Source: Deltaproteobacteria bacterium (GTDB lineage: Bacteria > Myxococcota_A > Polyangia > GCA-2747355). Taken from it: a stretch of 64,000 nt of DNA. Positions 7,388 through 59,097 of this stretch are shown piece by piece; the stretch's first letter is position 1; the number at the start of each line of letters is the position of its first letter. The translations under genes and the position numbers were made by a program. The notes under the pieces are model-generated. The model was not told where the DNA came from and searched no databases. It worked only from the letters and a program-made list of their open reading frames with translations. The stretch is taken from contig JACKDQ010000002.1 of assembly GCA_020633415.1 (NCBI GenBank), forward strand, positions 134,945 to 198,944, given 5' to 3'.

Positions 7388-7391
7388 AGGA

Positions 7392-10300: not shown

Positions 10301-11141
10301 TGCCGCTGCCGAGCAGCCCGATGGTACGCGCGTCGCCAAGCTGGCCGGCCTCGGCACACGCATCGGCGTCGAAGATGGTCGCTACTACAGCACCTCGTGG
10401 CATGACGGCGCTCGCCAGTGCGGTTACTTCTGGTGGGAGTGTCTGCACCACATCGGCTACTACCTCGATAAGATCATGGCGATCGAGGCGCTGACCGACA
10501 GCGAGACCAACTTCGTGGCTCGTGCCTCCCCGGAAGATCTCCGTCAATGGGAGGTCGGTTACTACAACACCTTCCCCGAGCAGATCGCCAAGATCAACTC
10601 GGCGATGTTGCGTAACGACTACTCGAAGCTCGGCCCGTACATGAAAGACGGCGTGTTGACCTTCCCCAACTACACCGGGGCGCTCGACACCGCGCAGAGT
10701 ACGGTGATCGACCCTTACGCGACGTTTACGGTCCAACTGTACTGGCAGGTGCTCGGTCAGGCGCGCTTCTTTAGCAACTACGACCAGAGCTTCCTCGACG
10801 ACTCGCGAGTGTTCGTGATCGGCACCGGCAAACAGCCGACGCTGCCGAGCGATAAGCTCTACACCTTCTACGACCCGCAATCGCACCAGACCTATGGCGC
10901 GATCAAGATGGAAGGCCGTACCGCTGGCGCCCATGCGGTGCTCGCGCGCGCCAATGCGTTGATGGCCCGCTCGGCCGCGTACTGTGACAAAGACGGCAAA
11001 GCTACGCCGAACCAACCGGACGACGATTGTCTCAACCCCAACAGCCAAGCTGGAGGCGAGCTGATCAAACACCTCGACATGATCAAGGTGATGGCGGACC
11101 TCAACGCCACCATGTCGTTCGGCAACCCATACGATCCCTAG
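7392..11141 (+). CDS. large zinc-dependent metalloprotease lipoprotein (met-zincin, DUF4953-like)
   Basis: Start MYRYLIAASALLFAASC (lipobox). HEVGHSLGLMHNF plus a downstream SVMDY motif. The track's N-terminal extension from 7173 overlaps the OMP gene and was rejected. Confidence 0.9.
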   Translation: MYRYLIAASALLFAASCGIERDPINQVQPNYVKKANLSGEWYYQRTVVDVPSSNGFTFVGGSDFSGLAKIRWDIQEDYLYARRTTELIKGADDKSNDVTGYKGEVIAAFAISKHFDIIKDYNPTTGEQINRVVENESDRPWYERDYMRIDWSANLVKNYQLDFEAASVEPVPYFVQKYDDPACERGTGELGDNTPPASDKCKLNPDAPYAESDFSYFDVTNKLFAKAGSIEIPGYGEVPLCWLRGEEFTECGAGEYSIRNSFLKIDDKRQYDPMPYKGKSTEMFGFFTADRLVYDGKQAVREQNKERYLTRHNLWVNWRDAQGKLIPYAQRKLRPIVYFVNRDFPEDLKHVAREVGRQYNETFTNIVKTLGHNPTGNVFILCENNPVKEGDPEQCGKAGNSPRLGDIRYSFMAYVPKFMEYGLLGLGPSNNDPETGEIFSGMAYVYHHNNTAAFRTQEMVELLSGKSDVNKYIDGVDLGEWLQRVNSGTTSGGRTHDLEAAKHMVEKLTTGWRAEYWKNNRYKLTATDELKQKTDGFDKWLEPHLDNLYYNHKILNGELRSANGRLAQLKGTYIEDLLLNKEMKLVAGKLPNDPAELTDDEKKRVSVVRGGFGRMLKLRAKTREKFAASRNMYLPEMADDALIGLARELKDKPTAETYNIIRTAIYTAVLTHEVGHSLGLMHNFGGSDDALNYHDEYWKIRDDGTVGPRLTDPITEAEKNAKIYNYAYSSVMDYAGRYTIDGKGLGKYDRAALMYGYAQKVEVYKDTVGIQASTMRDWHERDGEIVNFLITGPRATHYTLFYKTMGPKLYEASNRELVDASTLSADASVATINGKDMVRVPYIYCSHTRANLGDSCLTRDFGADSMERMQNILDELDTWYIQRNFPRGQVGVDHYGYVGNYYSRIYDRLKNWNDIYSLYVDLLPQFYSPAVLQGFFNDPENGWGDKTWAVQNAFNHLVQTVFSPNTGAYGAAAEQPDGTRVAKLAGLGTRIGVEDGRYYSTSWHDGARQCGYFWWECLHHIGYYLDKIMAIEALTDSETNFVARASPEDLRQWEVGYYNTFPEQIAKINSAMLRNDYSKLGPYMKDGVLTFPNYTGALDTAQSTVIDPYATFTVQLYWQVLGQARFFSNYDQSFLDDSRVFVIGTGKQPTLPSDKLYTFYDPQSHQTYGAIKMEGRTAGAHAVLARANALMARSAAYCDKDGKATPNQPDDDCLNPNSQAGGELIKHLDMIKVMADLNATMSFGNPYDP

Positions 11142-12339: not shown

Positions 12340-15144
12340 ATGTTTGGCTTCATTAGACGATGCTTGGCGCACAGGGTAATCACCTCGCTACTGGCCCTCG
12401 CGCTGCCGGTGAGCTGCGGCGGCGATGGGAAACATACCGCGCGAGACGCTGCGCCGGCGATCGATGGCGCGACCAGCGATGGGACAAAAGCCGACAGCGG
12501 TCCGGCGCCCGCGCAGTGCCTTGGGGGGTTGGTCGATCAGCCGTTGGGTGAAGCCGCGCTGCAAAGCGGGCAGCGTAGCGGCCGAGCCGAGCGACTAGCG
12601 ATCCCGCTTCACCGGCGCACGCTCAGCGCTGCCGACTTCTCGGCTCCCCTTTCGATCCGTCAGACGCCCCAGCTGGTCTACCTCTGGCTCAACGCGCCGA
12701 CCACCGCCGGCGATTGGCTCGAGCGCCGACAGCACGGCGTTCACTGGATCGAACACGTCAAAGACCGCGTACACCTGGTGTTGCTCGAGGCCGGCGTTAA
12801 CCCGGCGCAAATCACCGGGCTCCCCGAAGTCGCCGGCATTGCCGCACGCAGCTGGCGCGACAAGCTCGGCCCGGCGTTCGTCTATGACCCGCAGCGAAAG
12901 CGCGACATATTGGTGCGCACTTGGTCGCTCGTCACCGACGCCGCGGGCGGCAAACAACTCCAGCTCGGCCACCGCGTCATCCGCGCTCGCAGCCTTGCCG
13001 AGGCCGAGCAGATCGCCCGCCGCGCGACGGTGCTGCGCGTGACCGAGCACGTCGACGACAAGCCGCTGATCGACCGAACGCGTCGCGTGCTGGGCAGCGA
13101 CGACGTCAACAAGATCGATCTTAGCCAGTCGCCGCCGCAATATCTCGGCGTTAGCGGCAAAGGCGTGAAAATCGCCGTGGTCGACACCGGTGTCGACGCT
13201 GACCACCCGGACTTTCATCGCTTTGATAGCGCGGGAAACGATCTCGGTTCGCGCGTCGTCGGCGAAAAGCCTGGCGGCAGCGAGCCAGCGCATGGCACCC
13301 GCGTGGCCGGTGTGATCAGCGGCAGTGGTCGACACAGTGAAAGCAGCGAAGCCAAGCAGGAACAAGAGCCTTCGCCGTATAGCTGGCGTGGGCACGCCCC
13401 GGAAATCGACAAAATCGTCGCGCTCTATTTTGGCGGCTTGAGCGGCTTCACCAACCTCTACAAACAAGGGCTGCAAGCGCACAACACCTATCTGTCCAAC
13501 CACAGCCACACGATCACCACCGGCCCCTACAACGACGCAACCCAAGCCTATGACAGCATCCCGAACAAGGGCACCGAGGGGCTGGGCGACCCGGTGCGAC
13601 CGCCGCGCGTTGTCGTCTTCGCCGCGGCCAATAGTGGCAACAAGGTCGGCTTCTCCGACGCAACCTTCAAACTCCAGGGTTACTACAGCATCTTGGCCGG
13701 ACCGAAAAATGCGATCGTCGTCGGTGGCACCAACGGCAACGACCTAACCTACATGCCGTCATCCTCCAAGGGGCCAACCCTCGATGGCCGACTCAAGCCC
13801 GACGTCGTGGCGATCGGCGGATTCAACTACGGCCCGCTCGACGGCGCGGTGCTAGAGATCGCCGAGATCCGCTTGGTCGGCAAAGCACCCAAGCCAGATC
13901 GCGTCTGGACGTTCAATAAGGACGGCGACATGCTCGGCTGGACCGTCGAGGACGGCTTCGACGATGCACAGGTGAAGAACGGCTTTTTGCGCACGACCAC
14001 CTATGTCAAAGCGCAGGCGGGTGCGCTGCGCTTTTACGCCACCAAAGTCGACGGGAAGCCGATCGAAGCCACCGACTACGAGCGACTCGAAGTCAAGATG
14101 CGGGTGGCGATCAAAATTGTCCCGGACATCTACACGTGGACACGGTTCTGGGCGGTGCGCTGGGACACCAACGGCGACGAGGGGGTCAACGGCGAGGTGT
14201 TCCCGCAGTACGACAAGGCGAAGCGCACGCCAGGCGTGATCCAGACCCACCAAGCGAAGCTCAACGATCAATGGAAAGGGCAAATCCATTGGCTCCGCAT
14301 CCGCCCTTTCCCCTACGACAACCGCGTCGTGGTGCTCGAACCGGGCGCGCAATACGGCGTCGCTGGAGCAACATCGATCGCCGCACCGATGGTCAGCGGC
14401 ATTATCTCGCTGATGATCGACCGCTTGATCCACGACCAGGCGATCGACTTCGAAAACGCACCGCCTCTGCCGTCGACGATCAAAGCGATCGTGATTCACA
14501 CCGCGATCGACCTCGAGCATACCCAGAACGCCGCGCGTGAGCCGGACAACCCCGATACCAAGGCGCCGGTGCAGCATCATCTCGGACCTGACTTTGCCAC
14601 CGGCTACGGCCGCGTCGATGCCCGAGGGGCGATCGCCTTGATCGATGCCCACAAGCAAGCGACCAAATGGCGTGAGGCAGAACTGTCCGAGGGACAAACC
14701 CACAACTATCAACTGCGGGTCGATCGACGTCTCGCTGGATCGGGACCGCTCAAACTAACCCTGGTCTGGGATGACATGTGGGGCTCCCCGGAACTCAAGG
14801 TTACCGCATCGCAGTTGGTCAACGACCTCGACATCGTGGTGATCGATCCCGCTGGCAAAGCGCACTTCCCCTGGCACTTACCGCGGCTACCCTACGACGA
14901 TGCGACGATCGCCAGCGGTATCGACCCGATCAAGCCAACCGATGTGAAGGCAGCAACCCGCTGCGCGCGCGACACGTATTGGACCCCAGCGACGAGTGAC
15001 TGCGAGGACCACCAGAACAACGTCGAACAGGTGTTGATCGATGCGCCGGTCGCCGGTAACTACAAGGTGCTGGTACGCGGCAAGGCAATTCCCCAGGGAC
15101 CACAGAAGTACAGCCTGGTGCTCAGCCAGAGCTGCACCCCTTAG
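12340..15144 (+). CDS. S8 (subtilisin-family) serine peptidase lipoprotein, 934 aa
   Basis: Lipobox LPVSC. Catalytic triad contexts VAVVDTGVD (Asp), HGTRVAGV (His) and GATSIAAPMVSG (Ser). Large insertion between His and Ser. C-terminal P-domain-like tail. Confidence 0.9.
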   Translation: MFGFIRRCLAHRVITSLLALALPVSCGGDGKHTARDAAPAIDGATSDGTKADSGPAPAQCLGGLVDQPLGEAALQSGQRSGRAERLAIPLHRRTLSAADFSAPLSIRQTPQLVYLWLNAPTTAGDWLERRQHGVHWIEHVKDRVHLVLLEAGVNPAQITGLPEVAGIAARSWRDKLGPAFVYDPQRKRDILVRTWSLVTDAAGGKQLQLGHRVIRARSLAEAEQIARRATVLRVTEHVDDKPLIDRTRRVLGSDDVNKIDLSQSPPQYLGVSGKGVKIAVVDTGVDADHPDFHRFDSAGNDLGSRVVGEKPGGSEPAHGTRVAGVISGSGRHSESSEAKQEQEPSPYSWRGHAPEIDKIVALYFGGLSGFTNLYKQGLQAHNTYLSNHSHTITTGPYNDATQAYDSIPNKGTEGLGDPVRPPRVVVFAAANSGNKVGFSDATFKLQGYYSILAGPKNAIVVGGTNGNDLTYMPSSSKGPTLDGRLKPDVVAIGGFNYGPLDGAVLEIAEIRLVGKAPKPDRVWTFNKDGDMLGWTVEDGFDDAQVKNGFLRTTTYVKAQAGALRFYATKVDGKPIEATDYERLEVKMRVAIKIVPDIYTWTRFWAVRWDTNGDEGVNGEVFPQYDKAKRTPGVIQTHQAKLNDQWKGQIHWLRIRPFPYDNRVVVLEPGAQYGVAGATSIAAPMVSGIISLMIDRLIHDQAIDFENAPPLPSTIKAIVIHTAIDLEHTQNAAREPDNPDTKAPVQHHLGPDFATGYGRVDARGAIALIDAHKQATKWREAELSEGQTHNYQLRVDRRLAGSGPLKLTLVWDDMWGSPELKVTASQLVNDLDIVVIDPAGKAHFPWHLPRLPYDDATIASGIDPIKPTDVKAATRCARDTYWTPATSDCEDHQNNVEQVLIDAPVAGNYKVLVRGKAIPQGPQKYSLVLSQSCTP

Positions 15145-32929: not shown

Positions 32930-34228
32930 ATGAAATATCGCTTGTTGGCCCTACGCGCCCTGCTCGGCGGTGCAGCGTCCTGCTTGGCCATTGTGTCCAG
33001 CGCAACGCTGTTTGTCTCTAGCTGCGCAAGCGGCGAAACGGAGATCAAGGAGAAGGCGATCGCCACCGACGCGTCGCTCGGCGACGTTGGCAATGGCGAT
33101 GGTGCGCTGCTCAGCGATGGGAACGGCCAAGACATTCAAACGACAGTGGTCGACAGCGACGGTGACGGGCACTGTGCGCCGGGGACGGTCGACCCGCGAT
33201 GCTTGAGTGACAAGGACTGCGACGACAACGACGACAAGCGCCACCCCGGCGCCGTTGAAACCTGCGCTGACATCGGCATCGACAACGATTGCGACGGAGA
33301 CGACCAGGAGGTCGACGCCGACGGCGACGAAAAGGATGATCGCGGTGAAACCTGTAGCACGAGCTTGCCGGGGATCTGTCAGGCTGGAAAGACTGGCTGC
33401 GAAGCAAACCAGCTCAGTTGCCTGAGTGACTATCGGCTCGGTCAGATCAGCGAAACCTGCAACGGCGAAGACGACGACTGCAACGGCAAGACCGACGATG
33501 GCCAGCTCTGCAGCAACGGCAATAGTTGTCAGGGCCTCAGTGGGTGTCAATGTAATGGCCAGGCAGCGTGTATCGGCTCGACGAGCTGCTGCCCAAGCGG
33601 CTGCGCCGACACGGAGACCTCAACCGAAAACTGCGGTGGCTGCGGCGTCGGCTGCGGCGCCAGCGAGACCTGCGGCGCGGGCAAGTGCGAGTGCGGCACG
33701 ACGATCGGCAGCGTGGGCGGCGGAACTGCCTGCCCGACGGGAACGCACTGCGACGGCACGAGCTGCGTGCTCGACTGCACCACCAAAGGTAACCAAGCGA
33801 CGACGGCACTTGCGGCCAGCAGCGGCGGTGGGTTCGGCGACAAGGGTCCGAGCGCAATGATCGACGGCGCGCTGCAGTCTTCCTGCGGGTTTCACTGGAT
33901 CACGGCGACATCGACGCCGGCCGACAGTTGGATCGAGCTCAGCTGGTCCAATGCTGTGCGGATCAACCAGATCGAAATCGATACCGCCCCGGAAGCCGGC
34001 GCCTGCTCGATGTCATCGGGGCGAACACTCGCCGGCGGCACGTTGCAGTACCATGATGGCAGCAAGTGGGTAGCGATCGACACGATCAGCAACAAGCTCG
34101 ACGACTGGACGGCAGCCTTCCCCACGTTAGAAACGCGGCGATTGCGGATCTATGGCGCCCACGCCTCCAACAAGGGGCACTTCGATTCAAACCCGATGAT
34201 CTTCGAGTGGAAGGTCTACTGCCGCTAG
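32930..34228 (+). CDS. Cys-rich lipoprotein with metal-binding-motif repeats and a C-terminal F5/8-type-C (discoidin)-like domain
   Basis: Lipobox FVSSC. DGDGHC...DCDDNDDxxHPGAxExC and ETCNGEDDDCNGKTDDG repeats. GCGxxC run. Galactose-binding-like C-terminal ~150 aa. Confidence 0.8.
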   Translation: MKYRLLALRALLGGAASCLAIVSSATLFVSSCASGETEIKEKAIATDASLGDVGNGDGALLSDGNGQDIQTTVVDSDGDGHCAPGTVDPRCLSDKDCDDNDDKRHPGAVETCADIGIDNDCDGDDQEVDADGDEKDDRGETCSTSLPGICQAGKTGCEANQLSCLSDYRLGQISETCNGEDDDCNGKTDDGQLCSNGNSCQGLSGCQCNGQAACIGSTSCCPSGCADTETSTENCGGCGVGCGASETCGAGKCECGTTIGSVGGGTACPTGTHCDGTSCVLDCTTKGNQATTALAASSGGGFGDKGPSAMIDGALQSSCGFHWITATSTPADSWIELSWSNAVRINQIEIDTAPEAGACSMSSGRTLAGGTLQYHDGSKWVAIDTISNKLDDWTAAFPTLETRRLRIYGAHASNKGHFDSNPMIFEWKVYCR

Positions 34229-40371: not shown

Positions 40372-42177
<1,806 letters not shown>

Positions 42178-42223
42178 CGGCAGGGCCGAGCTAGCGGCAA
42201 GGCCGAGCTTTGCTGGGCCGCGC

Positions 42224-42904
42224 TCAGCAGGGCCCGGCGTGCTGAACCGATACACCGGCGGCAGCGGCACGGCAAGCATTGCTGAACGTCACGCCGTTGC
42301 AGCCACAGACCGGATCGAACTGTGCGGTGCAGGTCTGCGGTCGCGGTTCGCACACACCCATCTGATCGGCCACACCGCAATGGCCACCCTGATAGTTGCA
42401 GTAATCCGACGTGTCTCGGCAACGCAAACCAACGATGCCACCACAGCGCTCGACGGTGCAGGCGATCTTGGTGCAACCAACGAGGCCGTTGTTGCACATG
42501 CAGGTGTTGCATCCATCGCTGGCCGGAAAACTCGCACCGTGCGCGTACAGCTGACCGTTGAACGTGCAGCCTATCGGCGGGCAGGCCTTTTCCGTGCATC
42601 CAACTTGACCGTCGTTGCAGACGCAGGTGTTACAGCCATCGGCTGCCGGAAAACTCGCACCATCGGCGTATGTCCGTCCATCGACGGTGCAGGTCTTCGG
42701 ACAGGCGCGCAGCGTGCAACGGACCCTCCCCGCGCTGCAGCTGCAGCTGTTGCAGCCATCAGTCGCCGCGAAGGTCTCGCCGTCGCCATAGGTCGCACCA
42801 TCATAGGTGCAGGTATCGCCCCCACCACAGCCCGCAGATTGCTGCTTTGCCGCAACCAAGAACAGCAACGCCACCGGAATAAGCGCCATCACGCGACCAC
42901 GCAT
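42224..42904 (-). CDS. secreted Cys-rich protein: 3 tandem VWC-like repeats + C-terminal Kazal-like domain
   Basis: Signal peptide. Three ~40-aa repeats CTxxGxxYxxGxxFxxxDGCNxCxCxxGxxxCTxxAC. C-terminal CTAQFDPVCGCNGVTFSNAC...C matches the Kazal core PVCGxxGxT(Y/F)xNxC. Confidence 0.8.
   Translation of the reverse strand: MRGRVMALIPVALLFLVAAKQQSAGCGGGDTCTYDGATYGDGETFAATDGCNSCSCSAGRVRCTLRACPKTCTVDGRTYADGASFPAADGCNTCVCNDGQVGCTEKACPPIGCTFNGQLYAHGASFPASDGCNTCMCNNGLVGCTKIACTVERCGGIVGLRCRDTSDYCNYQGGHCGVADQMGVCEPRPQTCTAQFDPVCGCNGVTFSNACRAAAAGVSVQHAGPC
42458..42811 (-). repeat. three tandem ~120-123-bp coding repeats (six-Cys modules)
   Basis: Residues C32-C68, C72-C108 and C113-C149 align position-for-position on all Cys plus the Y, G, F and DGCN residues. 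Confidence 0.8.
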
Positions 42905-43334
42905 CGCTCGACTCCTTCAAGTGCCTCGGGAACTTCCCCCCCGGACACTTGCAGCTAGCCCCTTTTCGCCAGCGGGTCAAGCGGCTCGAGCAGCCAGCCC
43001 AAACGGCCGGCGGCCAGACGCAAATGGCGCTCTAGCGCCAGGCTTGAATCGGGACTAAACGCGCATCGCGACTTGATTTCGCGCCGTTTCAACGACCGCG
43101 GCGAGCATCTGGCGGTGGGCCTACGGCAAGAGACACGGCTCGGCTCCGCGCCAGCCGATCTCGCGAGGCCCAGCCTCAGCGGGTCACCTTTTGCCGCGTT
43201 GCCCATGGCTGACCGCTTGCCGTCCTGCGCAGATTGGCCAGCGCAGGTAAGGAATTGGTTTAGCGTCCGATTTCAGCCGAGCGATCGGCGGAAAGATCGG
43301 TTCCGCGCCCGAGTGGTAGTTCGCGGAGGGACCC

Positions 43335-43973
43335 ATGAGACGCCATTATCTTCACGCCTGTTTAGTCCTCGCCGCGTCGATCAGCGGCGGCTGCTCGTCC
43401 GACACTTATCATCAACAGACCAGTGACGCTGCGACCATCAACGGCACAGCACGCGATGGCGCAACACTAAGGACCGACGACAGCCGTGTCTGGGATCAAC
43501 GCCGCCCAGTCGCTGACGGCAGCATCGATCGTTCCCCGCTGGACGCTGGCCCGTCGACGGATCAATCCTACGCCAGCGATAGTTCATCAGCGCAGCTCGA
43601 CAGCCAACGAACGCCGCCGACCTGCGGTGAGGTATTGACCTGCGTCTACCTGGCCTGCCCTCCCGGCGACAAGCCTTGTCACAACAGCTGCTATGCCAAC
43701 GCCGGCTCCCCTGCAGGTGACCTGGCGCGCAGCGTCGTCGACTGCAACGAAAGATTGGCGAACGACAAGACTTGCGCAACCGCATGCAGCGGTGCCACGC
43801 CACAGCTCTGCCAGCGCTGTGAGGCGATCTGCAAGCCTGACGCAGACGCCTGCGCCAGACACAGTGGCATCGCGATTCCCGATGGCGGCTTCAACATCGA
43901 CGGTGCTGTCTGGCCCGACGGACACTTAGTCAACGACGCGATGCCGACGCCCGACGCCACGCAGACCGACTAA
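43335..43973 (+). CDS. lipoprotein, Cys-rich C-terminal half
   Basis: GGAGGG SD. MRRHYLHACLVLAASISGGCSSD lipobox. Confidence 0.65.
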   Translation: MRRHYLHACLVLAASISGGCSSDTYHQQTSDAATINGTARDGATLRTDDSRVWDQRRPVADGSIDRSPLDAGPSTDQSYASDSSSAQLDSQRTPPTCGEVLTCVYLACPPGDKPCHNSCYANAGSPAGDLARSVVDCNERLANDKTCATACSGATPQLCQRCEAICKPDADACARHSGIAIPDGGFNIDGAVWPDGHLVNDAMPTPDATQTD

Positions 43974-52019: not shown

Positions 52020-54176
52020 CTAGTTTTGCGGCTCGTCAAAGAACAACGGCTCGCGGTGCTTGATGAACTCTTTGAGCACACCCTCGACGTCGGGCGAAAG
52101 CGCGACAAACTCGACCCCGACGCCGGCAGCCCATTGCGGAGCAGCAGGGTTAGGCTCACGTCGCCAGCGGACGCGGGCCGGGACGACGAAACGCGTCCGC
52201 CCACCGGGAAGCGAGAAAGCGACGTCTAGCTCAGTGCCAATCGCGGGTCCATCGGCCGTGGCCACGAACAGACCGCCGCAGCCGATGTTCTGGGAGAACC
52301 CCAAGTAAAAGTTGTGCTCGGTGAAGTAGTCCACGTCGACTTCAAGGCGCACGCGAGCCGTGTGCCGACGCTCGCCACTTGACGAAGTTTTCGAATCGCC
52401 TCGCCCAACAACCAACCTCGCACCCTGTTCGCGCTGCAGCGTCGGTGTATTCGCGCGCCCAAGCTGGGCGTTGCGTAGGTCTGCAGCATACATCGCCGCG
52501 CCAACGACGACGGCCCGCTTGGGATGGACCACCGCCCGCGGAGCACGGCCAAAGAACTGGCCGACAGCGTGGCGAAGCGCCGGCAGACTGCAGCTACCAC
52601 CAGCGAGATACACCGCATCGAGATCTTCGACGTTCAGCGCAGCATCGCGAAGCACAGTGCGACAAATACCAAGCGCGCGCTCGATCAGGCCCTTGGACAA
52701 GTCGTCAAGTCGTTGTTTGGAAACCGTCCAACTCAGCGACCGCGGCTGATCGCTACCAAGACACACATCACTGAGCGACAAGCGAACCTCGTTTTCCATC
52801 GACAGAGCGCACTTGGCCCGTTCGGCTTCAAGCAGCAGGCGCTGCCAGATCGCGATCTGGTTACGCAAGTCAACCGCTGAGTGCTCAACGAACACAGCGG
52901 CAGCAGCGTCAGCGAGCGCGGCGTCCAAGTCGTCGCCGCCCAACCAAACGTCACCCGCCGTGGCGATCACGCTGTAGTCCGCACGAGTCACATCGATCAC
53001 GCTGAACTCAAACGTCCCACCGCCAAAATCGAACACAGCGACCGTCTTCTGCTCACTCAGCTCGCCGCGCTGGGCGATCGCAGCAGCGGTCGGCTGATCG
53101 ATCAATTCGCGAACCTCTAGACCGACCATTTTCGCCGCTGCGCGCAAAGCGTCGCAGCCTCCGTGCGGGAAGCTCACCGGTACGGCCAATACCGCCTCTG
53201 AAATCTCGACGCCCAGCTGCTGCTCGGCGATGAATTTAATCTGCCCCAAGATCGGCGCGCAGAGCTGCGGAATCGCGTAGTGGCGGCCGTCGACTTCGAT
53301 CAGGATCTCCCCGGCGGCCCCACGAACGCTCGGCGCGGCAATCGTTGCCAAATACGCCTGAATCGCCGGGTCATCGAAAGACCGCCCGAGCAGGCGCAGC
53401 GGGCTGGGGACGACGCGATCCGGTTGTCGCGCCGACAAATCCCGTGCCGGCTGTCCGGTGATCACGCCGTTTCGGACAAAGCCGACCGCGGAGGGAATAC
53501 TCCAATCACGGCTGGTGAGCTTGATCACGCGTGATTGGCTGCCGATCACCACCGCCACCGAAGATCTGGCGGTACCGAAGTCGATCGCGATCAGTGGCGG
53601 GCGAACCGAGCTCCATTTGAGCGGAGACTGAAACGCCCGAACGGTATCTTCACTCTCGCTCAATGCATGTCCCGCCGTGAGATCTTCGACTTCGTCGAAG
53701 CGCAGCAGGCCCTCAAAGTCTGCATAGCGACGCGTCGGTAGCGTGACGCTCACGCTCTGCTCGTCGATCGCGAACAACTGACTCTCACCGAACCCAGGCG
53801 AGTAAAACGGCTGTTTCGCCGGGACGGCCTCGCAGCCCTTGGCCGCCCGATCGATCAACGCCTGGTATGACGCAATGCGCTGCGCCGTCGCCGCGTCCAA
53901 TTCCACGCCCACACCGCGTGGCTCCTCGCTCTGGATGTGAACCACCCGCCCCTTTAGCGGCAAGCGATCACCGTCGGGCAGCGTCAGCGTGATCGAAACG
54001 CGCTCACCCACAGGCAATGGTTCGCCACACGGCACGAACAAGCCACCCCGCCCGACGTTTGCCGAAAACAGCTCTCGCGCCTGCTGCCAATCGACACAGC
54101 TCAGGCTTAGCGGCACGCGCAAAGGAAACCGGGCAAAGTTCCGTCGCCGCTTCCCACGGGGGGGATGCTCGCTCAT
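52020..54176 (-). CDS. PilZ - Hsp70/actin-fold nucleotide-binding domain - PilZ protein (no substrate-binding domain)
   Basis: N-terminal RNFAR...NVGRGGLFV and C-terminal RHTAR...NIGCGGLFV (PilZ RxxxR / (D/N)xGxxG). Central IAIDFGTARSSVAV, VFDFGGGTFEFSV and YLAGGSCSLP are Hsp70 NBD phosphate/adenosine motifs. Confidence 0.85.
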   Translation of the reverse strand: MSEHPPRGKRRRNFARFPLRVPLSLSCVDWQQARELFSANVGRGGLFVPCGEPLPVGERVSITLTLPDGDRLPLKGRVVHIQSEEPRGVGVELDAATAQRIASYQALIDRAAKGCEAVPAKQPFYSPGFGESQLFAIDEQSVSVTLPTRRYADFEGLLRFDEVEDLTAGHALSESEDTVRAFQSPLKWSSVRPPLIAIDFGTARSSVAVVIGSQSRVIKLTSRDWSIPSAVGFVRNGVITGQPARDLSARQPDRVVPSPLRLLGRSFDDPAIQAYLATIAAPSVRGAAGEILIEVDGRHYAIPQLCAPILGQIKFIAEQQLGVEISEAVLAVPVSFPHGGCDALRAAAKMVGLEVRELIDQPTAAAIAQRGELSEQKTVAVFDFGGGTFEFSVIDVTRADYSVIATAGDVWLGGDDLDAALADAAAAVFVEHSAVDLRNQIAIWQRLLLEAERAKCALSMENEVRLSLSDVCLGSDQPRSLSWTVSKQRLDDLSKGLIERALGICRTVLRDAALNVEDLDAVYLAGGSCSLPALRHAVGQFFGRAPRAVVHPKRAVVVGAAMYAADLRNAQLGRANTPTLQREQGARLVVGRGDSKTSSSGERRHTARVRLEVDVDYFTEHNFYLGFSQNIGCGGLFVATADGPAIGTELDVAFSLPGGRTRFVVPARVRWRREPNPAAPQWAAGVGVEFVALSPDVEGVLKEFIKHREPLFFDEPQN

Positions 54177-54637: not shown

Positions 54638-55873
54638 CTAGCGGCACGACGAGCGCAGCCACCAGGTCTGTTCGGACGCCAGGGCCAAATTGGCCGCGGC
54701 ACTCCGCACCCAACGACTCGGATCGCGCACGGTCACGCTGAGTTTGCTCGCACCTCGCGCATTGTCGCAGCTTAGGCTGAGCTCACTGCCGGCGACGATC
54801 ACCCGACCATCGAGCTTCCATTCGATGATCAACGGCGCTGCCCTGCTATCATCGCTGATCACGTCGTAGCGCGGTCCGCGCAGATCGAGCCGAAATGTCG
54901 TCGGCGAAACACCGATCGGCGTCCGCCGCCACGGTGAAGGCTCCGGTGTGGCCTTGATCAGCGGACCACCGACGCGACGATAGAGTTCAGCGACGAGAAA
55001 CTCGCGGCAAACCACGCAAAACGCCGCCTCAGTGGTATAGCGCATCTTGCAGTGGGCACTCGGCGAATAGGCCCGAGCAGTGTAGTAGCAGCCCGCCTCA
55101 GGCTCGCCCAATGAACCATCCTTTTGCCAAATCGCCCAGCGCGTCGGATCGGTCGAACAATTTGGCTTTGAATCGGCGATCTTCAGCACAGACGCACCGC
55201 GCTGCACGTGCTCGGCAACAACAGCCACGTCGATGTACTCGTCAGCCAAGCCGAAGGCGTGCGCCAGTTCGTGAATGGCGATGCCCGGAGCACTCCCGAT
55301 CGCCGTGATGTAGCGTCCCTTATGATGCGCGCCACCCAGCGGGTCGGCGACATTGAGCAAGACGATCGTCTCGCCGACGTCCCATCCCAAGCCATCGCGC
55401 CAGTGGCGCACCCGACGCTCGTCGCAAACCGCTCGACGGATCGTCATCGCTGAGCAGCCCAAGGGGTTTTGCTCCGGCGCCAAACCCGAACGCGCGGAGA
55501 TCAACGGCACGAAGCGAATGCGCAGCAAGCCACCGTAGCGCGAAAACGGATCGACGATCATCAGCCGGTCGGTGAGCGCCTTCGCCTGTTGACGCAGCAA
55601 TTCCTGCTCGTCGGCTGTATAGCCATCGCCGGTGATGACGATCTCGAGCTTGTTCGGATCAGCAAACTCGCTCAGGTCGAACAGCGTTTCACTGCCCTGC
55701 TGCTCGGCCTTGCCCAACCGATCATCGAGCGGATCGAACAATCCGTTGTACTCCGGGCCGCAACCGACGAGCATCAGTGCGAACGAAACGACGGCCAATC
55801 TGCAGCGACCGCGACGCCTGATCGATACCTGCGCGACGAACTGTCCAACCTCTTTAGCGCCACGCAGCTTCAT
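54638..55873 (-). CDS. M64-like zinc metallopeptidase lipoprotein
   Basis: Lipobox MLVGC. IHELAHAFGLADEY (HExxHxxxGLxDEY, as in the IgA-peptidase M64 family). Confidence 0.75.
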   Translation of the reverse strand: MKLRGAKEVGQFVAQVSIRRRGRCRLAVVSFALMLVGCGPEYNGLFDPLDDRLGKAEQQGSETLFDLSEFADPNKLEIVITGDGYTADEQELLRQQAKALTDRLMIVDPFSRYGGLLRIRFVPLISARSGLAPEQNPLGCSAMTIRRAVCDERRVRHWRDGLGWDVGETIVLLNVADPLGGAHHKGRYITAIGSAPGIAIHELAHAFGLADEYIDVAVVAEHVQRGASVLKIADSKPNCSTDPTRWAIWQKDGSLGEPEAGCYYTARAYSPSAHCKMRYTTEAAFCVVCREFLVAELYRRVGGPLIKATPEPSPWRRTPIGVSPTTFRLDLRGPRYDVISDDSRAAPLIIEWKLDGRVIVAGSELSLSCDNARGASKLSVTVRDPSRWVRSAAANLALASEQTWWLRSSCR

Positions 55874-57036
55874 TTACCGCTCTCCGCCTCAATCAACCGT
55901 CGCGCACCACCATAGATGTCGCGATAGCCGGGATATCTTTGCTCGCTCGGCGCCGTGGGCAACGTCACGCCTTGGCCGAGATCGGCCGCCATCGCCAGCC
56001 GGGTCAGCAGACGCAGCGCGTGGCGCGCAGTCCCGCCCACCAGGCCGAGCTCAACACGGCTCGGCGTGTCGTGGGCGCTGTGTAGATCGAGAACCTCGCC
56101 CAGGTAAAAGACCATCGGAATGCCCGCTCCGGCGAGCGACCAATGATCGCCAGCGGTGTAGAGTCTCGTGCCGGCAAAGCCCGGATAGTCTTTCTGATGG
56201 CCGGCAACAGCACGCGCCATATCGCCCTTGGGAACGATCGCCATGCCGTGACGCCAGGCGAGATTCGCCTGGCTAGTCACCGCATCCACGCCGCCGTGTA
56301 GCGCGATCTGCAGACCCTCGCCGCGACCGATCATGTCGAGATTGATCCCGGCGACGAAGCGCGTGTCGGAAAACTGTCGCGACTGGCGAAGGAACGCTTC
56401 AGCGCCGACCAAGCCGATCTCCTCGGCCGAGGTTACCAAGAAGACGACGTCACGCTTGAGTCCGTTACCGCGACGGCGATCTTTGACAAATCGGCGCTGA
56501 TAACGAGCGAGCGTTTCGGAGATCGCCAGCAAGGCGGCCACACCGCTGGCGTTGTCATTGGCGCCGTAGTAGCGCCGCCCATCGAGCCCCTTCTTCTGCC
56601 GCTCACTCAAACCATCGATGTGAGCGACGACCAACAGCGACTCGTTGGTCGAGCCGTCGCCTTTGGCGACAGCGATCACATTGCGCGTCTCAACCCGTTT
56701 GTCACCAAACGCCTGCTGGACGCGCAAACTCGCGCGCGGCGCGCGGTAAGCAAACGGCGCAAAGAAGCTGCTCGGCCGATCCCCCGCCGGCTGCCAACCT
56801 TGCTCGCGAAAACGCTCCGCAACCCAACGGGTCAGACGAAAAAAGGAGCGCTGCTTTTCCGGATTACGACCGTCGCTCCAGTTGGCGATCCGCTGGAAAT
56901 CGTCAACGAGCGGCGAGCCGACGAGGGCTGGCCGCTTGCGGGCCACAGCGAGGCCGGGCAGCAGCAGCAAGGCCAACACCAGCTGCCATCTTAACCCATC
57001 GGTTAAAGTCGGGCGATATCTGTTCGCGGACCGCAC
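55870..57036 (-). CDS. M28-family aminopeptidase
   Basis: GANDNASGVAALLAI and TSAEEIGLVGA metal-ligand motifs. ATGA overlap with the M64 gene. Confidence 0.85.
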   Translation of the reverse strand: MRSANRYRPTLTDGLRWQLVLALLLLPGLAVARKRPALVGSPLVDDFQRIANWSDGRNPEKQRSFFRLTRWVAERFREQGWQPAGDRPSSFFAPFAYRAPRASLRVQQAFGDKRVETRNVIAVAKGDGSTNESLLVVAHIDGLSERQKKGLDGRRYYGANDNASGVAALLAISETLARYQRRFVKDRRRGNGLKRDVVFLVTSAEEIGLVGAEAFLRQSRQFSDTRFVAGINLDMIGRGEGLQIALHGGVDAVTSQANLAWRHGMAIVPKGDMARAVAGHQKDYPGFAGTRLYTAGDHWSLAGAGIPMVFYLGEVLDLHSAHDTPSRVELGLVGGTARHALRLLTRLAMAADLGQGVTLPTAPSEQRYPGYRDIYGGARRLIEAESGK

Positions 57037-58281: not shown

Positions 58282-59097
58282 TTACTGGAGCGACTGCCAA
58301 TCGCCGTTGGCGATCCAATCATCGACTTCGGCCCGGGTCAGCGGCGCGGCGATCAAGCTGCGGAAGCAGGTCTGCCAAAACAACCAGGACTGGGTGGAAA
58401 CCGCCACGCCGAGCACCTTTTGGTCGACAATCAACGGCCCGCCGGAGTCGCCACGGCAGATCTTCTGCTCGCCCTGTTTGGTCTTCCAGCGCAAGGCGCG
58501 GCCAAACCGTGAGCGAGGTGGACGCAGTTTCCCTTCGGCAGCAGCCTCTTCGGCGACGATTCCGAAAAAGGTCGCCACAAAGATCCGCGCGATGATCTCG
58601 CCCAGCTTGCGATCGCGATCGCCAAAACCGACGATCGTCGCCTGATCCTTGACGTTGTAAGCGCCATCTTCGCTGAGCGTCATCGCCACCGCCCCTGCAA
58701 ACGCGGGGGCGTGGAGCATCGCCAGGTCAAACTGCTGTTTGTTGGCGCCCGAGGTCGAAGCGTAGGACGGGTGGATCCAGTAGGCTTTCGCCTGCCCCCG
58801 CGGCCTGCGCAGATTGATCGTACTGCCGGTGAAGATCTCGACCTTGGCCAGCGGCTTGGCACTGGCGGTCAAGCAATGCGCAGCGGTCAGCAAATAGCCC
58901 TCACCAACATGAAATGCCGTGCACTGGGTCTCACGCTCCTCGCCAAATGACATGACCAAGCCGTGCACCGCGGCAAACTCGGCGGGAACTTCGGCTTTGC
59001 CGGTGGCGTCGGCATCGGCGGGCTCAATCGCTGGTGCGCCGCAGGCGACGACAGCAGAAAGCAGGGTTAGCAACAGGCATCGGATCGTCAGCAGCAT
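58282..59097 (-). CDS. trypsin-like (S1) serine protease, secreted
   Basis: LTAAHC (His), FDLAMLH (Asp), CRGDSGGPL (Ser). Signal peptide/lipobox VVAC. Confidence 0.9.
   Translation of the reverse strand: MLLTIRCLLLTLLSAVVACGAPAIEPADADATGKAEVPAEFAAVHGLVMSFGEERETQCTAFHVGEGYLLTAAHCLTASAKPLAKVEIFTGSTINLRRPRGQAKAYWIHPSYASTSGANKQQFDLAMLHAPAFAGAVAMTLSEDGAYNVKDQATIVGFGDRDRKLGEIIARIFVATFFGIVAEEAAAEGKLRPPRSRFGRALRWKTKQGEQKICRGDSGGPLIVDQKVLGVAVSTQSWLFWQTCFRSLIAAPLTRAEVDDWIANGDWQSLQ

What the first reader, a model, noticed from the sequence alone, without database searches (positions are those of the whole stretch)
42224..42904. Secreted bacterial protein built from eukaryote-style modules: three VWC-like six-Cys repeats plus a Kazal-like domain
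After a signal peptide, three tandem ~40-aa repeats align on every Cys. They share the pattern C-T-x-x-G-x-x-Y-x-x-G-x-x-F-x-x-x-D-G-C-N-x-C-x-C-x-x-G-x-x-x-C-T-x-x-A-C. The G..Y..G..(W/F)....C..C.C..G...C layout is what I associate with von Willebrand factor type C / chordin-like CR modules.

The C-terminal 73 aa contain CTAQFDPVCGCNGVTFSNAC...C, matching the Kazal protease-inhibitor core (PVCG-x-x-G-x-T-Y/F-x-N-x-C). A Kazal inhibitor fused to VWC-like repeats in a genome region rich in secreted proteases could be a self-protection or anti-prey protease inhibitor. It could also be a horizontally acquired or convergent extracellular-matrix-type module.
Basis: partly seen in the sequence, partly recalled or inferred. 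Interest (0 to 1): 0.65.

Follow-up and report, generated by a model that had tools for sequence, protein, structure and literature searches.

The report
Bacterial lipoprotein built from protease-inhibitor modules
This is a real 226-residue myxobacterial-type lipoprotein made of three small six-cysteine repeats (the type found in insect pacifastin inhibitors and in the first half of animal VWC domains) plus a Kazal inhibitor domain; it most likely blocks serine proteases at the cell envelope, belongs to a large family already labelled in databases, and no member has been tested.

Summary
ORF 42224-42904 (-) encodes a signal peptide, a lipobox-type Cys26, three 37-aa repeats with identical Cys spacing, and a 73-aa C-terminal module with 10 Cys.

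**Repeats.** Pfam scores them above threshold for both VWC and Pacifastin_I. They cover only VWC profile positions 1-38 of 57 (6 of 10 Cys, no CC motif). They are the VWC N-terminal subdomain, also seen as the VWF E module and the "ancestral" pacifastin-like domain, not a full VWC. Their Cys5-Cys6 loops read CT-LR-AC, CT-EK-AC and CT-KI-AC, which puts Leu, Glu and Lys at the pacifastin P1 position.

**C-terminus.** It is a non-classical Kazal domain with P1 Ala. Its closest solved relative is GmSPI-2, a subtilisin and proteinase K inhibitor. It sits inside a 10-Cys module found as stand-alone (lipo)proteins in several bacterial phyla.

**Family.** The repeat occurs at 495 or more loci in species-representative genomes. 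The best 80 are nearly all Myxococcota/Polyangia. Repeats are shuffled with Kazal and Kunitz modules.

**Context.** There is no synteny and no adjacent protease.

**Prior work.** A 2026 paper already reports pacifastin-like domains in myxobacteria.

**Best reading.** A membrane-tethered, multi-headed canonical serine-protease inhibitor (confidence about 0.55), untested biochemically. It is a new member of a known kind, of moderate interest.

The parts
42224..42904 (-). Coding sequence, 226 aa plus stop (NCBI MCB9555355.1, 'hypothetical protein H6707_04575')
   Evidence: ORF list; translation; identical database protein; same gene in an independent assembly
42912..42917 (-). Shine-Dalgarno-like AAGGAG, 7 nt upstream of the ATG
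   Evidence: Read directly from the sequence
42830..42904 (-). Signal peptide, residues 1-25 (MRGR, then a hydrophobic core, then KQQSAG)
   Evidence: Sequence; pLDDT below 50 for residues 16-26; aligned with the signal peptides of homologs
42827..42829 (-). Cys26, the probable lipid-attachment Cys of a lipobox (S-A-G-C). It is the only Cys outside the disulfide modules (29 Cys = 1 + 18 + 10)
   Evidence: Column C26 is at least 90% conserved among 35 homologs, where it sits in L-[AST]-[GA]-C lipoboxes. About 82 of 115 full-length homologs have a lipobox-like motif by a crude regex that includes some false internal-Cys hits
42701..42811 (-). Repeat 1 (residues 32-68), pacifastin-like / VWC-SD1-like six-Cys module. 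Loop C63-T-L65-R66-A-C68, so P1 is Leu and P1' is Arg
   Evidence: Pfam Pacifastin_I 29.9 bits and VWC 29.5 bits for this repeat alone; local HMM 49.1 bits at these coordinates; pLDDT above 90
42581..42691 (-). Repeat 2 (residues 72-108). Loop C103-T-E105-K106-A-C108, so P1 is Glu and P1' is Lys
   Evidence: Pfam VWC 34.3 bits and Pacifastin_I 31.9 bits. Single-repeat AF2 model with pLDDT 91.6. Foldseek: CCN3 VWC TM 0.77 at 1.6 A, VWF TIL'E' TM 0.74 at 1.5 A, PMP-C TM 0.57-0.61
42458..42568 (-). Repeat 3 (residues 113-149). Loop C144-T-K146-I147-A-C149, so P1 is Lys and P1' is Ile
   Evidence: Pfam VWC 32.1 bits; Pacifastin_I 24.9 bits, below the cut-off on its own. Its best relatives are the last repeats of other proteins, which also carry CTKIAC
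42353..42445 (-). Pre-Kazal subdomain (residues 154-184) with four invariant Cys (154, 162, 169, 176). It has no Pfam family and forms the N-terminal half of the bacterial 10-Cys Kazal module
   Evidence: No Pfam hit at E below 10 (protein 4). All Cys invariant in 126 modules. Conserved together with the Kazal core in Alphaproteobacteria, Planctomycetota and Desulfobulbaceae proteins. Only weak follistatin-domain similarity, E = 0.005-0.007
42227..42352 (-). Non-classical Kazal core (residues 185-226). Reactive loop C192-T-A194-Q-F-D-P-V-C200, so P1 is Ala194. Loop-supporting Asn209 is present, classical Cys5 is absent, and there is an extra Cys202
   Evidence: Pfam Kazal_1 33.2 bits and Kazal_2 28.1 bits. 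PDB phmmer hit to GmSPI-2 at 3.6e-7. Module profile against PDB: ovomucoid 6e-15, SPI-2 4e-11, LDTI 6e-10. Foldseek 4hgu: TM 0.79, rmsd 1.9 A, 47% identity

Best explanation
The gene encodes a membrane-tethered, multi-headed canonical (standard-mechanism) serine-protease inhibitor.

**Export and anchoring.** After Sec export, the signal peptide is probably removed at the lipobox and Cys26 is lipidated (inferred).

**Architecture.** The mature chain is a string of four small disulfide-locked modules (shown by sequence and models).

**Mechanism.** Each module would present a rigid, substrate-like loop that docks in a protease active site and is cleaved extremely slowly (inferred from family membership). 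The three pacifastin-like repeats put Leu65, Glu105 and Lys146 at P1. The Kazal core puts Ala194 at P1. One molecule could therefore engage chymotrypsin-like, Glu-specific, trypsin-like and elastase/subtilisin-like enzymes (inferred).

**Role.** Held at the envelope, it would shield periplasmic or surface proteins from the cell's own or competitors' secreted serine proteases. This is the logic proposed for periplasmic ecotin. The targets are unknown.
For: **Domain identity**
- Pfam Pacifastin_I, VWC, Kazal_1 and Kazal_2 all score above their curated cut-offs.
- A profile of 86 bacterial repeats finds solved pacifastin inhibitors as top sequence hits: SGPI-1 2.3e-6, LCMI-II 5.7e-6, SGCI 1.2e-5, PMP-C 2.1e-5.
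- Repeat 1's loop CTLRACP equals that of an LCMI-II chain.
- The P1 position is read as defined in PMC13388995.

**Kazal core**
- GmSPI-2 matches at E = 3.6e-7 by sequence and at TM 0.79, rmsd 1.9 A by structure.
- GmSPI-2 has only two disulfides, seven residues between its first two Cys as here, and strongly inhibits subtilisin and proteinase K (PMC4169406).
- The Asn that braces the Kazal loop is conserved in 119 of 126 modules.
- Kazal P1 is the 5th most variable of 73 columns. It differs between all heads in 41 of 49 multi-Kazal relatives. This matches the P1 variability I recall for Kazal inhibitors.

**Fusion partners**
- The same repeats are fused to Kazal modules in many relatives.
- They are fused to a bona fide Kunitz_BPTI domain (66.9 bits) in P0031.

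**Localisation**
- Signal peptide and a conserved lipobox Cys.

**Models**
- High-confidence models: pLDDT 87 for the whole protein and 91.6 for one repeat.

**Analogy**
- Ecotin as a periplasmic protective inhibitor (PMC9904509).
Against: - No bacterial member of either module family has been tested. I found no paper on it.
- The whole repeat is structurally closer to non-inhibitory VWC SD1 and VWF/mucin E modules (TM 0.72-0.77) than to pacifastins (0.50-0.61). The CT-x3-C motif is shared with those modules.
- The pacifastin-type P1 column is not especially variable (rank 11 of 37). It is dominated by Glu (80 of 231), an unusual P1 for canonical inhibitors.
- No serine protease is adjacent, either here or at three related loci. 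The only neighbouring peptidase seen is an M48 metalloprotease.
- None of the window's seven tested neighbours (TypA and six other ORFs) recurs in the 85 related loci.
- The query's Kazal core has Phe for the usual Tyr and lacks Cys5.
- The pairing of Cys185 and Cys202 is unknown.
- The -3 and -4 lipobox positions (Q-S) are atypical.
Confidence: 0.55

Rival explanations
1. Only the C-terminal Kazal module inhibits proteases. The three six-Cys repeats serve as a rigid stalk or as binding modules (as VWF E modules, VWC SD1 and fibronectin type I modules do) that hold the Kazal head away from the membrane or attach it to a partner.
For: - The best structural matches of a single repeat are VWC SD1, VWF TIL'E' and mucin E modules, then FnI. 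Pacifastins rank lower.
- The repeat's P1 and P1' columns are only moderately variable, and Glu is the commonest P1.
- Arrays of up to 15 repeats occur in relatives, which looks more like a stalk or matrix protein than like an inhibitor.
- The Kazal module alone is a widespread stand-alone bacterial (lipo)protein.
Against: - Sequence profiles tie the repeat to proven pacifastin inhibitors as strongly as to E modules.
- Specific P1-P1' pairs (L-R, E-K, K-I) recur at matching repeat positions in different proteins. This suggests selection on the loop rather than on a mere spacer.
- The repeats are also fused to Kunitz domains.
Confidence: 0.25
2. The protein is not an inhibitor at all. It is a disulfide-rich structural or adhesive cell-surface or extracellular-matrix lipoprotein of a myxobacterium, and the inhibitor-type folds serve only as stable scaffolds.
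For: - Many eukaryotic Kazal, VWC and FnI modules (agrin, follistatin, RECK, mucins) are non-inhibitory; several of these appear among the hits.
- There is no genomic link to proteases.
- Copy number and domain order are highly variable across the family.
Against: - The Kazal reactive-loop geometry markers are kept: seven-residue Cys2-Cys3 spacing, P2 Thr and the bracing Asn.
- Kazal P1 varies between heads.
- Three independent inhibitor families (pacifastin-like, Kazal, Kunitz) co-occur in the same protein family.
Confidence: 0.13
3. The protein is a precursor that is cut between modules to release free small inhibitory or antimicrobial peptides, as arthropod pacifastin precursors are.
For: Arthropod pacifastin-like precursors are processed in this way (PMC13388995, abstract). 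The modules here are separated by short linkers.
Against: - The linkers (PKT, PPIG, TVER) carry no dibasic or other obvious processing sites.
- The paper treats processing sites as a derived arthropod trait.
- A lipid anchor argues for a tethered product.
Confidence: 0.04
4. The gene is eukaryotic contamination or a very recent horizontal acquisition in the assembly, not a genuine bacterial gene.
For: The domain types are classed as eukaryotic in older surveys (PMC2394772). One relative comes from a dinoflagellate record (P0117).
Against: - Gene GC is 62.6% against 62.3% for the window.
- The gene has a Shine-Dalgarno sequence and a lipobox.
- It is flanked by typical bacterial genes.
- Two independent assemblies show the same locus.
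- At least 495 related loci occur in species-representative genomes; the best 80 listed are nearly all Myxococcota and include closed Sorangium and Minicystis chromosomes.
- The repeats are old: they are 51-70% identical to each other and just as similar to repeats in other proteins.
Confidence: 0.02

Closest known systems
Pacifastin family (Pfam PF05375; recalled as MEROPS I19): locust SGPI-1/SGPI-2 (SGTI/SGCI) and LCMI-I/II (PMP-D2/PMP-C), especially the 'ancestral' pacifastin-like domains of PMC13388995
   Same: - Six-Cys scaffold with C-N-x-C-x-C, a Gly in the Cys4-Cys5 loop and C5-T-P1-P1'-x-C6.
- Pfam score above the cut-off.
- Top solved-sequence hits for the bacterial profile.
- Repeat 1's loop CTLRACP is the same as an LCMI-II chain.
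- The N-terminal Gly/aromatic-rich beta-hairpin extension and Glu-rich P1 usage match the 'ancestral, non-metazoan' class described.
- That paper lists five myxobacterial proteins (Chondromyces, Sorangium, Polyangium). A Chondromyces crocatus protein is among the query's relatives (P0118).
   Different: - Cys1-Cys2 spacing is 18 residues, against the 9-12 I recall for classical pacifastins.
- Lipoprotein context.
- Fusion to a Kazal module.
- No processing sites.
- No activity data.
- The paper found its bacterial members by structure only and reported 24 accessions. Here they are plainly detectable by sequence, and there are at least 495 loci.
von Willebrand factor type C (VWC / chordin-like CR) domain and the VWF/mucin E modules (TIL'E', TILa)
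   Same: - C-x-x-C-x-C motif and the G..Y..G..F hairpin.
- Pfam VWC at 29.5-34.3 bits per repeat.
- Model superposes on CCN3 VWC (TM 0.77, 1.6 A), collagen IIA VWC, VWF TIL'E' (TM 0.74, 1.5 A) and MUC2/MUC5AC E modules.
   Different: - Only the N-terminal subdomain is present (profile positions 1-38 of 57).
- 6 Cys rather than 10, no C-terminal CC-x-x-C, no SD2.
- The eukaryotic modules bind BMPs or build multimers and are not known as protease inhibitors.
Non-classical Kazal inhibitors: Galleria mellonella GmSPI-2 (2m5x/4hgu), leech LDTI (1an1), Anemonia elastase inhibitor (1y1b)
   Same: - Motif C-T-P1-x-[FYW]-D-P-V-C-G-x-[DN]-G-x-T-[YF]-x-N-x-C ... C.
- Seven residues between Cys2 and Cys3.
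- Beta-alpha-beta fold (TM 0.79, rmsd 1.9 A, 47% identity to 4hgu).
- Like GmSPI-2, it lacks the classical Cys1-Cys5 bridge partner.
   Different: - An extra Cys directly after Cys3+1 (PVCGC).
- A 4-Cys N-terminal extension, giving a 10-Cys module.
- P1 is Ala, against Thr in GmSPI-2, Lys in LDTI and Met in AEI.
- Tyr is replaced by Phe in T-F-S-N.
Bacterial 'Kazal-type serine protease inhibitor family protein' (about 100-125 aa stand-alone proteins, e.g. Marinicauda salina, Mesorhizobium sp., Ca. Electronema, Planctomycetota and Myxococcales MAGs)
   Same: The whole 73-aa 10-Cys module aligns end to end at 45-60% identity. At least one of these proteins also has a lipobox.
   Different: Those proteins carry one module (sometimes two) and no six-Cys repeats. 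They are named by automated annotation only, and I found no experimental work.
Ecotin (periplasmic broad-range serine-protease inhibitor of E. coli)
   Same: It is proposed to work alike: an envelope-located, broad-specificity canonical inhibitor that protects the cell against exogenous serine proteases (PMC9904509).
   Different: Unrelated fold. Ecotin is a soluble dimer with one primary site per monomer, whereas this is a lipid-anchored chain of four disulfide-rich heads.

Membership tests
VWC (PF00093) | HMM score above the Pfam gathering threshold | tested here: met
   65.5 bits for the whole protein and 29.5, 34.3 and 32.1 bits per repeat, against a cut-off of 27.6
VWC (PF00093) | Full domain of about 60-80 aa with ten Cys, including the C-terminal C8-C9-x-x-C10 motif (SD2 subdomain); feature list from my own knowledge | tested here: not met
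   Each repeat is 37 aa with 6 Cys. It matches profile positions 1-37/38 of 57 only. There is no Cys-Cys dipeptide anywhere in the protein
VWC (PF00093) | SD1 fold (short beta-hairpin plus three-stranded sheet) with C-x-x-C-x-C | tested here: met
   CN-x-C-x-C in all three repeats. Model matches CCN3 VWC at TM 0.77 and rmsd 1.6 A over 40 columns, and collagen IIA VWC at TM 0.69-0.71
Pacifastin (PF05375; recalled as MEROPS I19) | HMM score above the Pfam gathering threshold | tested here: met
   52.2 bits for the whole protein (cut-off 27.9). Repeats alone score 29.9 and 31.9 (pass) and 24.9 (repeat 3, below)
Pacifastin (PF05375; recalled as MEROPS I19) | Cys pattern C1-x(9-12)-C2-N-x-C3-x-C4-x(2-3)-G-x(3-6)-C5-T-x3-C6 (classical pattern, recalled) | tested here: inconclusive
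   Everything from C2 onward fits in all three repeats, but the C1-C2 spacing is 18. [quoted passage not shown]
Pacifastin (PF05375; recalled as MEROPS I19) | Disulfide connectivity 1-4, 2-6, 3-5 | not testable with these tools
Only pLDDT, secondary structure and Foldseek superpositions are available (PMP-C 1gl1_I TM 0.57-0.61, rmsd 2.8 A, 44% identity over 34 columns)
Pacifastin (PF05375; recalled as MEROPS I19) | Inhibits serine proteases through the Cys5-Cys6 loop | not testable with these tools
   Needs biochemistry. P1 and P1' read as L-R, E-K and K-I (position as defined)
Kazal (PF00050 / PF07648; recalled as MEROPS I1) | HMM score above the Pfam gathering thresholds | tested here: met
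   Kazal_1 at 30.7-33.2 bits (cut-off 21) and Kazal_2 at 26.4-28.2 bits (cut-off 22.8). All 33 tested modules of the family match both
Kazal (PF00050 / PF07648; recalled as MEROPS I1) | Six Cys forming C1-C5, C2-C4 and C3-C6 (classical Kazal) | tested here: not met
   Equivalents of C1 (185), C2 (192), C3 (200), C4 (211) and C6 (226) are present. No Cys follows 2-3 residues after C4 (NACRAAAAG). An extra Cys202 is present. GmSPI-2, a proven inhibitor, likewise has only the C2-C4 and C3-C6 bridges
Kazal (PF00050 / PF07648; recalled as MEROPS I1) | Kazal fold (beta-hairpin, alpha-helix, C-terminal strand) | tested here: met
   Model shows strand 199-201, helix 210-215 and strand 220-223 with pLDDT 96-97. 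Foldseek: 4hgu TM 0.79 at rmsd 1.9 A; SPINK1 and PSTI TM about 0.6
Kazal (PF00050 / PF07648; recalled as MEROPS I1) | Canonical reactive loop: seven residues between Cys2 and Cys3, P1 two residues after Cys2, bracing Asn before Cys4 | tested here: met
   C192-TAQFDPV-C200 and Asn209 in TFSNAC. The Asn is conserved in 119 of 126 family modules and P1 is variable. Loop size matches GmSPI-2
Follistatin (FS) module (FOLN + Kazal) | Significant match over the N-terminal subdomain as well as the Kazal part | tested here: not met
   No FOLN or other Pfam hit on residues 148-192. Module profile against follistatin and FSTL1 gives only E = 0.005-0.007
Fibronectin type I (FnI_RECK PF25028, Fn1_2) | HMM above threshold per module; four-Cys FnI pattern | tested here: inconclusive
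   Whole protein scores 49.9 bits (cut-off 30), but single repeats score 25.4, 28.7 and 23.8, all below it. There are 6 Cys rather than 4. Structural TM to FnI pairs is 0.59-0.67
Bacterial lipoprotein | Signal peptide followed by a lipobox [LVI][ASTVI][GAS]-C | tested here: inconclusive
   The query has S-A-G-C26 preceded by K-Q-Q, so positions -3 and -4 are atypical. Cys26 aligns with classical lipobox Cys (LSGC, LAGC, LTAC...) in at least 90% of 35 homologs. It is the one Cys left over after the 28 in the modules

The most novel reading that the evidence does not exclude
Polyangia myxobacteria may maintain a large, combinatorially shuffled arsenal of membrane-anchored canonical protease inhibitors. 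The arsenal would be built from the same six-Cys module that animals use in VWC domains, VWF/mucin E modules and pacifastins, together with Kazal and Kunitz heads.

On this reading the bacterial set is not a late borrowing. It reflects an ancient inter-kingdom transfer, or even the bacterial source of these 'animal' extracellular modules.

The abundant Glu-P1 heads would define a specificity class aimed at Glu-specific microbial S1 endopeptidases.
Probability: 0.15. Interest if true: 0.75.

Novelty: new member of a known kind. Interest (0 to 1): 0.42.

Why it matters
**If the inhibitor reading holds.** This would be a four-headed, lipid-anchored serine-protease inhibitor from a predatory or degradative bacterial lineage that secretes many proteases. 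The family, with hundreds of loci and shuffled pacifastin-like, Kazal and Kunitz heads, would be an untapped source of small, stable inhibitors with varied P1 residues.

**Authenticity of bacterial pacifastin-like domains.** PMC13388995 flagged bacterial pacifastin-like domains as intriguing but in need of confirmation. The data here strengthen their authenticity in four ways:
- They are detectable by sequence.
- They are embedded in bacterial gene contexts.
- They are present in closed genomes.
- They carry bacterial lipoprotein signals.

**A practical annotation point.** These repeats are not full VWC domains. UniProt-style labels such as 'VWFC domain-containing protein' overstate the match.

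Tried and rejected
- **NCBIfam.** No family matched.
- **PADLOC and PHROGs.** Not scanned; I judged them not relevant.
- **Promoter and terminator scan of 42100-43400.** Nothing found.
- **The search for related loci with the full-length alignment A1.** It failed for lack of conserved stretches. I repeated it with a three-repeat alignment.
- **Whole-protein Foldseek.** It gave only low TM-scores because the modules are flexibly linked. I therefore modelled a single repeat separately.
- **Synteny and guilt by association.**
  - No conserved neighbours at three homolog loci.
  - No TypA or other window neighbours in the 85 related loci.
  - No second paralog in the window.
- **Pre-Kazal subdomain.** No Pfam hit and only a marginal follistatin-domain signal.
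- **Literature on functional bacterial Kazal or myxobacterial inhibitors.** Nothing relevant found.
- **Readings considered and rejected.**
  - Metal-binding or metallothionein-like Cys protein: the Cys are in known disulfide scaffolds and the protein is exported.
  - Recent tandem duplication: the repeats are 51-70% identical in protein and 61-74% in DNA, and are equally close to repeats in other proteins.
  - Contamination: see the rival explanations.
Full report
**1. What is there**

ORF 42224..42904 (minus strand) encodes 226 aa from an ATG. An AAGGAG motif lies 7 nt upstream.

The product has 29 Cys:
- Cys26, directly after a signal peptide.
- Three blocks of six Cys (residues 32-68, 72-108, 113-149) with identical spacing 19, 3, 2, 7, 5.
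- Ten Cys in residues 154-226.

The identical protein is NCBI MCB9555355.1, 'hypothetical protein H6707_04575' from a Deltaproteobacteria MAG. An independent Logan assembly has the same gene and the same neighbours. Gene GC (62.6%) equals window GC (62.3%).

**2. The repeats**

*Pfam scores.*
- VWC scores 65.5 bits, Pacifastin_I 52.2 and FnI_RECK 49.9, all above their cut-offs.
- Repeat by repeat, VWC scores 29.5, 34.3 and 32.1 bits, but only over profile positions 1-37/38 of 57.
- Pacifastin_I scores 29.9, 31.9 and 24.9 bits per repeat.
- With 6 Cys and no Cys-Cys dipeptide, each repeat lacks the C-terminal half of a VWC domain.

*Model and fold search.*
- An AlphaFold2 model of repeat 2, built on 86 family repeats, is confident (pLDDT 91.6). 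It shows a beta-hairpin followed by a three-stranded sheet.
- Foldseek places it on CCN3 VWC (TM 0.77, 1.6 A), VWF TIL'E' (0.74, 1.5 A), MUC2/MUC5AC/VWF E modules (about 0.73) and fibronectin type I modules (0.59-0.67).
- Over its last 34 residues it matches pacifastins: PMP-C and an SGCI-derived inhibitor at TM 0.57-0.61 normalised to the target, with 39-44% identity.

*Profile search.*
- A sequence profile of the bacterial repeats finds pacifastins first among solved chains: SGPI-1 at 2.3e-6, LCMI-II at 5.7e-6, SGCI at 1.2e-5 and PMP-C at 2.1e-5.
- These are interleaved with MUC5AC and VWF E' modules.

*Conclusion.* The repeat is the common six-Cys module that appears as VWC subdomain 1, as the VWF/mucin E module, and as the 'ancestral' pacifastin-like domain with an N-terminal hairpin described in PMC13388995.

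*Reactive loops.* By that paper's definition (Cys5-X-P1-P1'-X-Cys6), the P1-P1' pairs are Leu-Arg, Glu-Lys and Lys-Ile. Repeat 1's CTLRACP equals the loop of an LCMI-II chain.

**3. The C-terminal module**

- Residues 185-226 pass both Kazal HMMs.
- They hit GmSPI-2 at E = 3.6e-7 and superpose on it at TM 0.79, 1.9 A and 47% identity.
- GmSPI-2 is a 36-residue Kazal with only two disulfides and seven residues between its first two Cys. It has P1 Thr and high activity on subtilisin and proteinase K (PMC4169406).
- The query has the same loop length, P1 Ala194 and the loop-bracing Asn. It lacks Cys5 and has an extra Cys202.
- Residues 154-184 add four invariant Cys and match no Pfam family. Similarity to follistatin modules is marginal.

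The whole 73-aa, 10-Cys module is a unit:
- 152 copies occur in the 120 listed relatives.
- A profile search finds at least 2292 proteins.
- Many are 100-125-aa stand-alone proteins. One example carries a classical lipobox (LLLAGC) and another a lipobox-like LALAAC.
- Sources include Myxococcales, Planctomycetota, Alphaproteobacteria (Marinicauda, Mesorhizobium, Hellea) and Ca. Electronema.
- These are named 'Kazal-type serine protease inhibitor family protein' by automated annotation.

**4. The family**

- 166 relatives were found by sequence. The named ones are from Sorangium, Minicystis, Chondromyces and Polyangiaceae MAGs.
- Local HMMs show free shuffling of the two modules: repeat-only proteins, Kazal-only proteins and alternating arrays.
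- Three relatives carry precomputed Kunitz (PF00014) hits. In P0031 the architecture is five repeats plus a Kunitz_BPTI domain (66.9 bits).
- A scan of one genome per species found at least 495 confirmed loci. The best 80 are all labelled Myxococcota, Polyangia or 'Deltaproteobacteria', apart from one unclassified 'uncultured bacterium' MAG and one 'Nitrospirae' MAG. They include closed Sorangium and Minicystis chromosomes.
- Arrays reach 15 repeats.

Age of the repeats:
- The query's repeats are 51-70% identical to each other.
- They are 65-76% identical to repeats in other proteins.
- Repeat 3 groups mostly with the last repeats of other proteins, which also carry CTKIAC.
- The triplication is therefore old.

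**5. Localisation**

- Cys26 aligns with the lipobox Cys of at least 90% of 35 homologs.
- A crude regex (some false internal-Cys hits) finds a lipobox-like motif in about 70% of full-length relatives, with Gly the commonest +2 residue.
- Cys26 is also the single Cys not accounted for by the disulfide modules.
- The query's own lipobox (QSAGC) is atypical, so lipidation is probable, not certain.

**6. Context**

- Neighbours are TypA/BipA (convergent), a Cys-rich putative lipoprotein (divergent), an MR/MLE enzyme, an amidohydrolase and MsrA.
- Peptidases exist in the window (S8, S1, M28, M64-like), but they lie 12-27 kb away.
- Three related loci show no serine protease next door.
- None of the window's neighbours recurs in the 85 related loci.

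**7. Functional signals**

- Kazal P1 is the 5th most variable of 73 columns (D, L, A, T, K, R, Q, E, F ...).
- It differs between all heads in 41 of 49 multi-Kazal relatives. This is the behaviour expected of real Kazal inhibitors.
- The repeat's P1 column ranks only 11th of 37 (E 80, L 56, K 25, A 18, D 16 of 231).
- Particular P1-P1' pairs recur.
- This is compatible with conserved targets, but equally with a structural role. The Glu preference is unexplained.

**8. Verdict**

The best explanation is a lipid-anchored four-headed canonical serine-protease inhibitor. The Kazal head is the most secure part and the three pacifastin-like heads are less so.

Novelty is limited:
- Databases already label relatives with these domains.
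- A 2026 paper reports pacifastin-like domains in five myxobacterial proteins.

What is added here:
- The size of the family and its restriction to Polyangia.
- Its fusions with Kazal and Kunitz modules.
- The lipoprotein signal.
- The point that these are not full VWC domains.

Noticed in passing
window 43335-43973 (+): Divergently transcribed neighbour of 212 aa. It has a lipoprotein-like N-terminus (LAASISGGC) and a Cys-rich C-terminal half, with no Pfam match. The same gene pair appears in an independent assembly.
   Followed up: partly
window 58282-59097 (-): S1 (trypsin-family) peptidase with TAAHC and GDSGGP motifs. It has a Lys six residues before the catalytic Ser (KICRGDSGGP). If this is the S1-pocket position, it might favour acidic P1 residues such as the Glu of repeat 2. 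This is pure speculation.
   Followed up: partly
window 12340-15144 (+); 54638-55873 (-); 55870-57036 (-); 7173-11141 (+): Other peptidase genes in the window: an S8 subtilase of 934 aa, an adjacent M64-like and M28 pair, and a 1322-aa ORF with a short Met-zincin (DUF4953) match.
   Followed up: no
window 52020-54176 (-): A 718-aa protein that combines an Hsp70-type ATPase with two C-terminal PilZ stretches, an unusual fusion.
   Followed up: no
L031 1041-2999; L008 3638-5520; L035 3653-5830; L083 520-2690: Relatives with 15 or 14 consecutive six-Cys repeats, or with five alternating repeat-Kazal units in one reading frame.
   Followed up: partly
P0031 (Pfam re-scanned); P0052, P0057 (precomputed PF00014 only) - metagenome proteins: Five six-Cys repeats followed by a Kunitz/BPTI domain (66.9 bits in P0031). 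This is a third inhibitor type in the same family.
   Followed up: partly
P0015, P0021, P0022, P0026, P0027, P0034, P0035, P0039 C-termini: Repeat-only relatives end in a conserved Cys-rich module: CDP..EWWR.YV..P..C..IDF.C...N.CGCGCEQ..CP..FDC.PP..CD...I...CPYS. It has no Pfam family of its own.
   Followed up: no
P0117 (Effrenium voratum record); L072 ('Nitrospirae' MAG): The only specifically non-myxobacterial labels among close relatives of the repeats. They may be contamination or mis-binning, or genuine transfers.
   Followed up: no
window 32930-34228 (+): A 432-aa ORF with a MopE-type putative metal-binding Cys motif (33.3 bits), another Cys-rich exported-looking protein in the window.
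   Followed up: no
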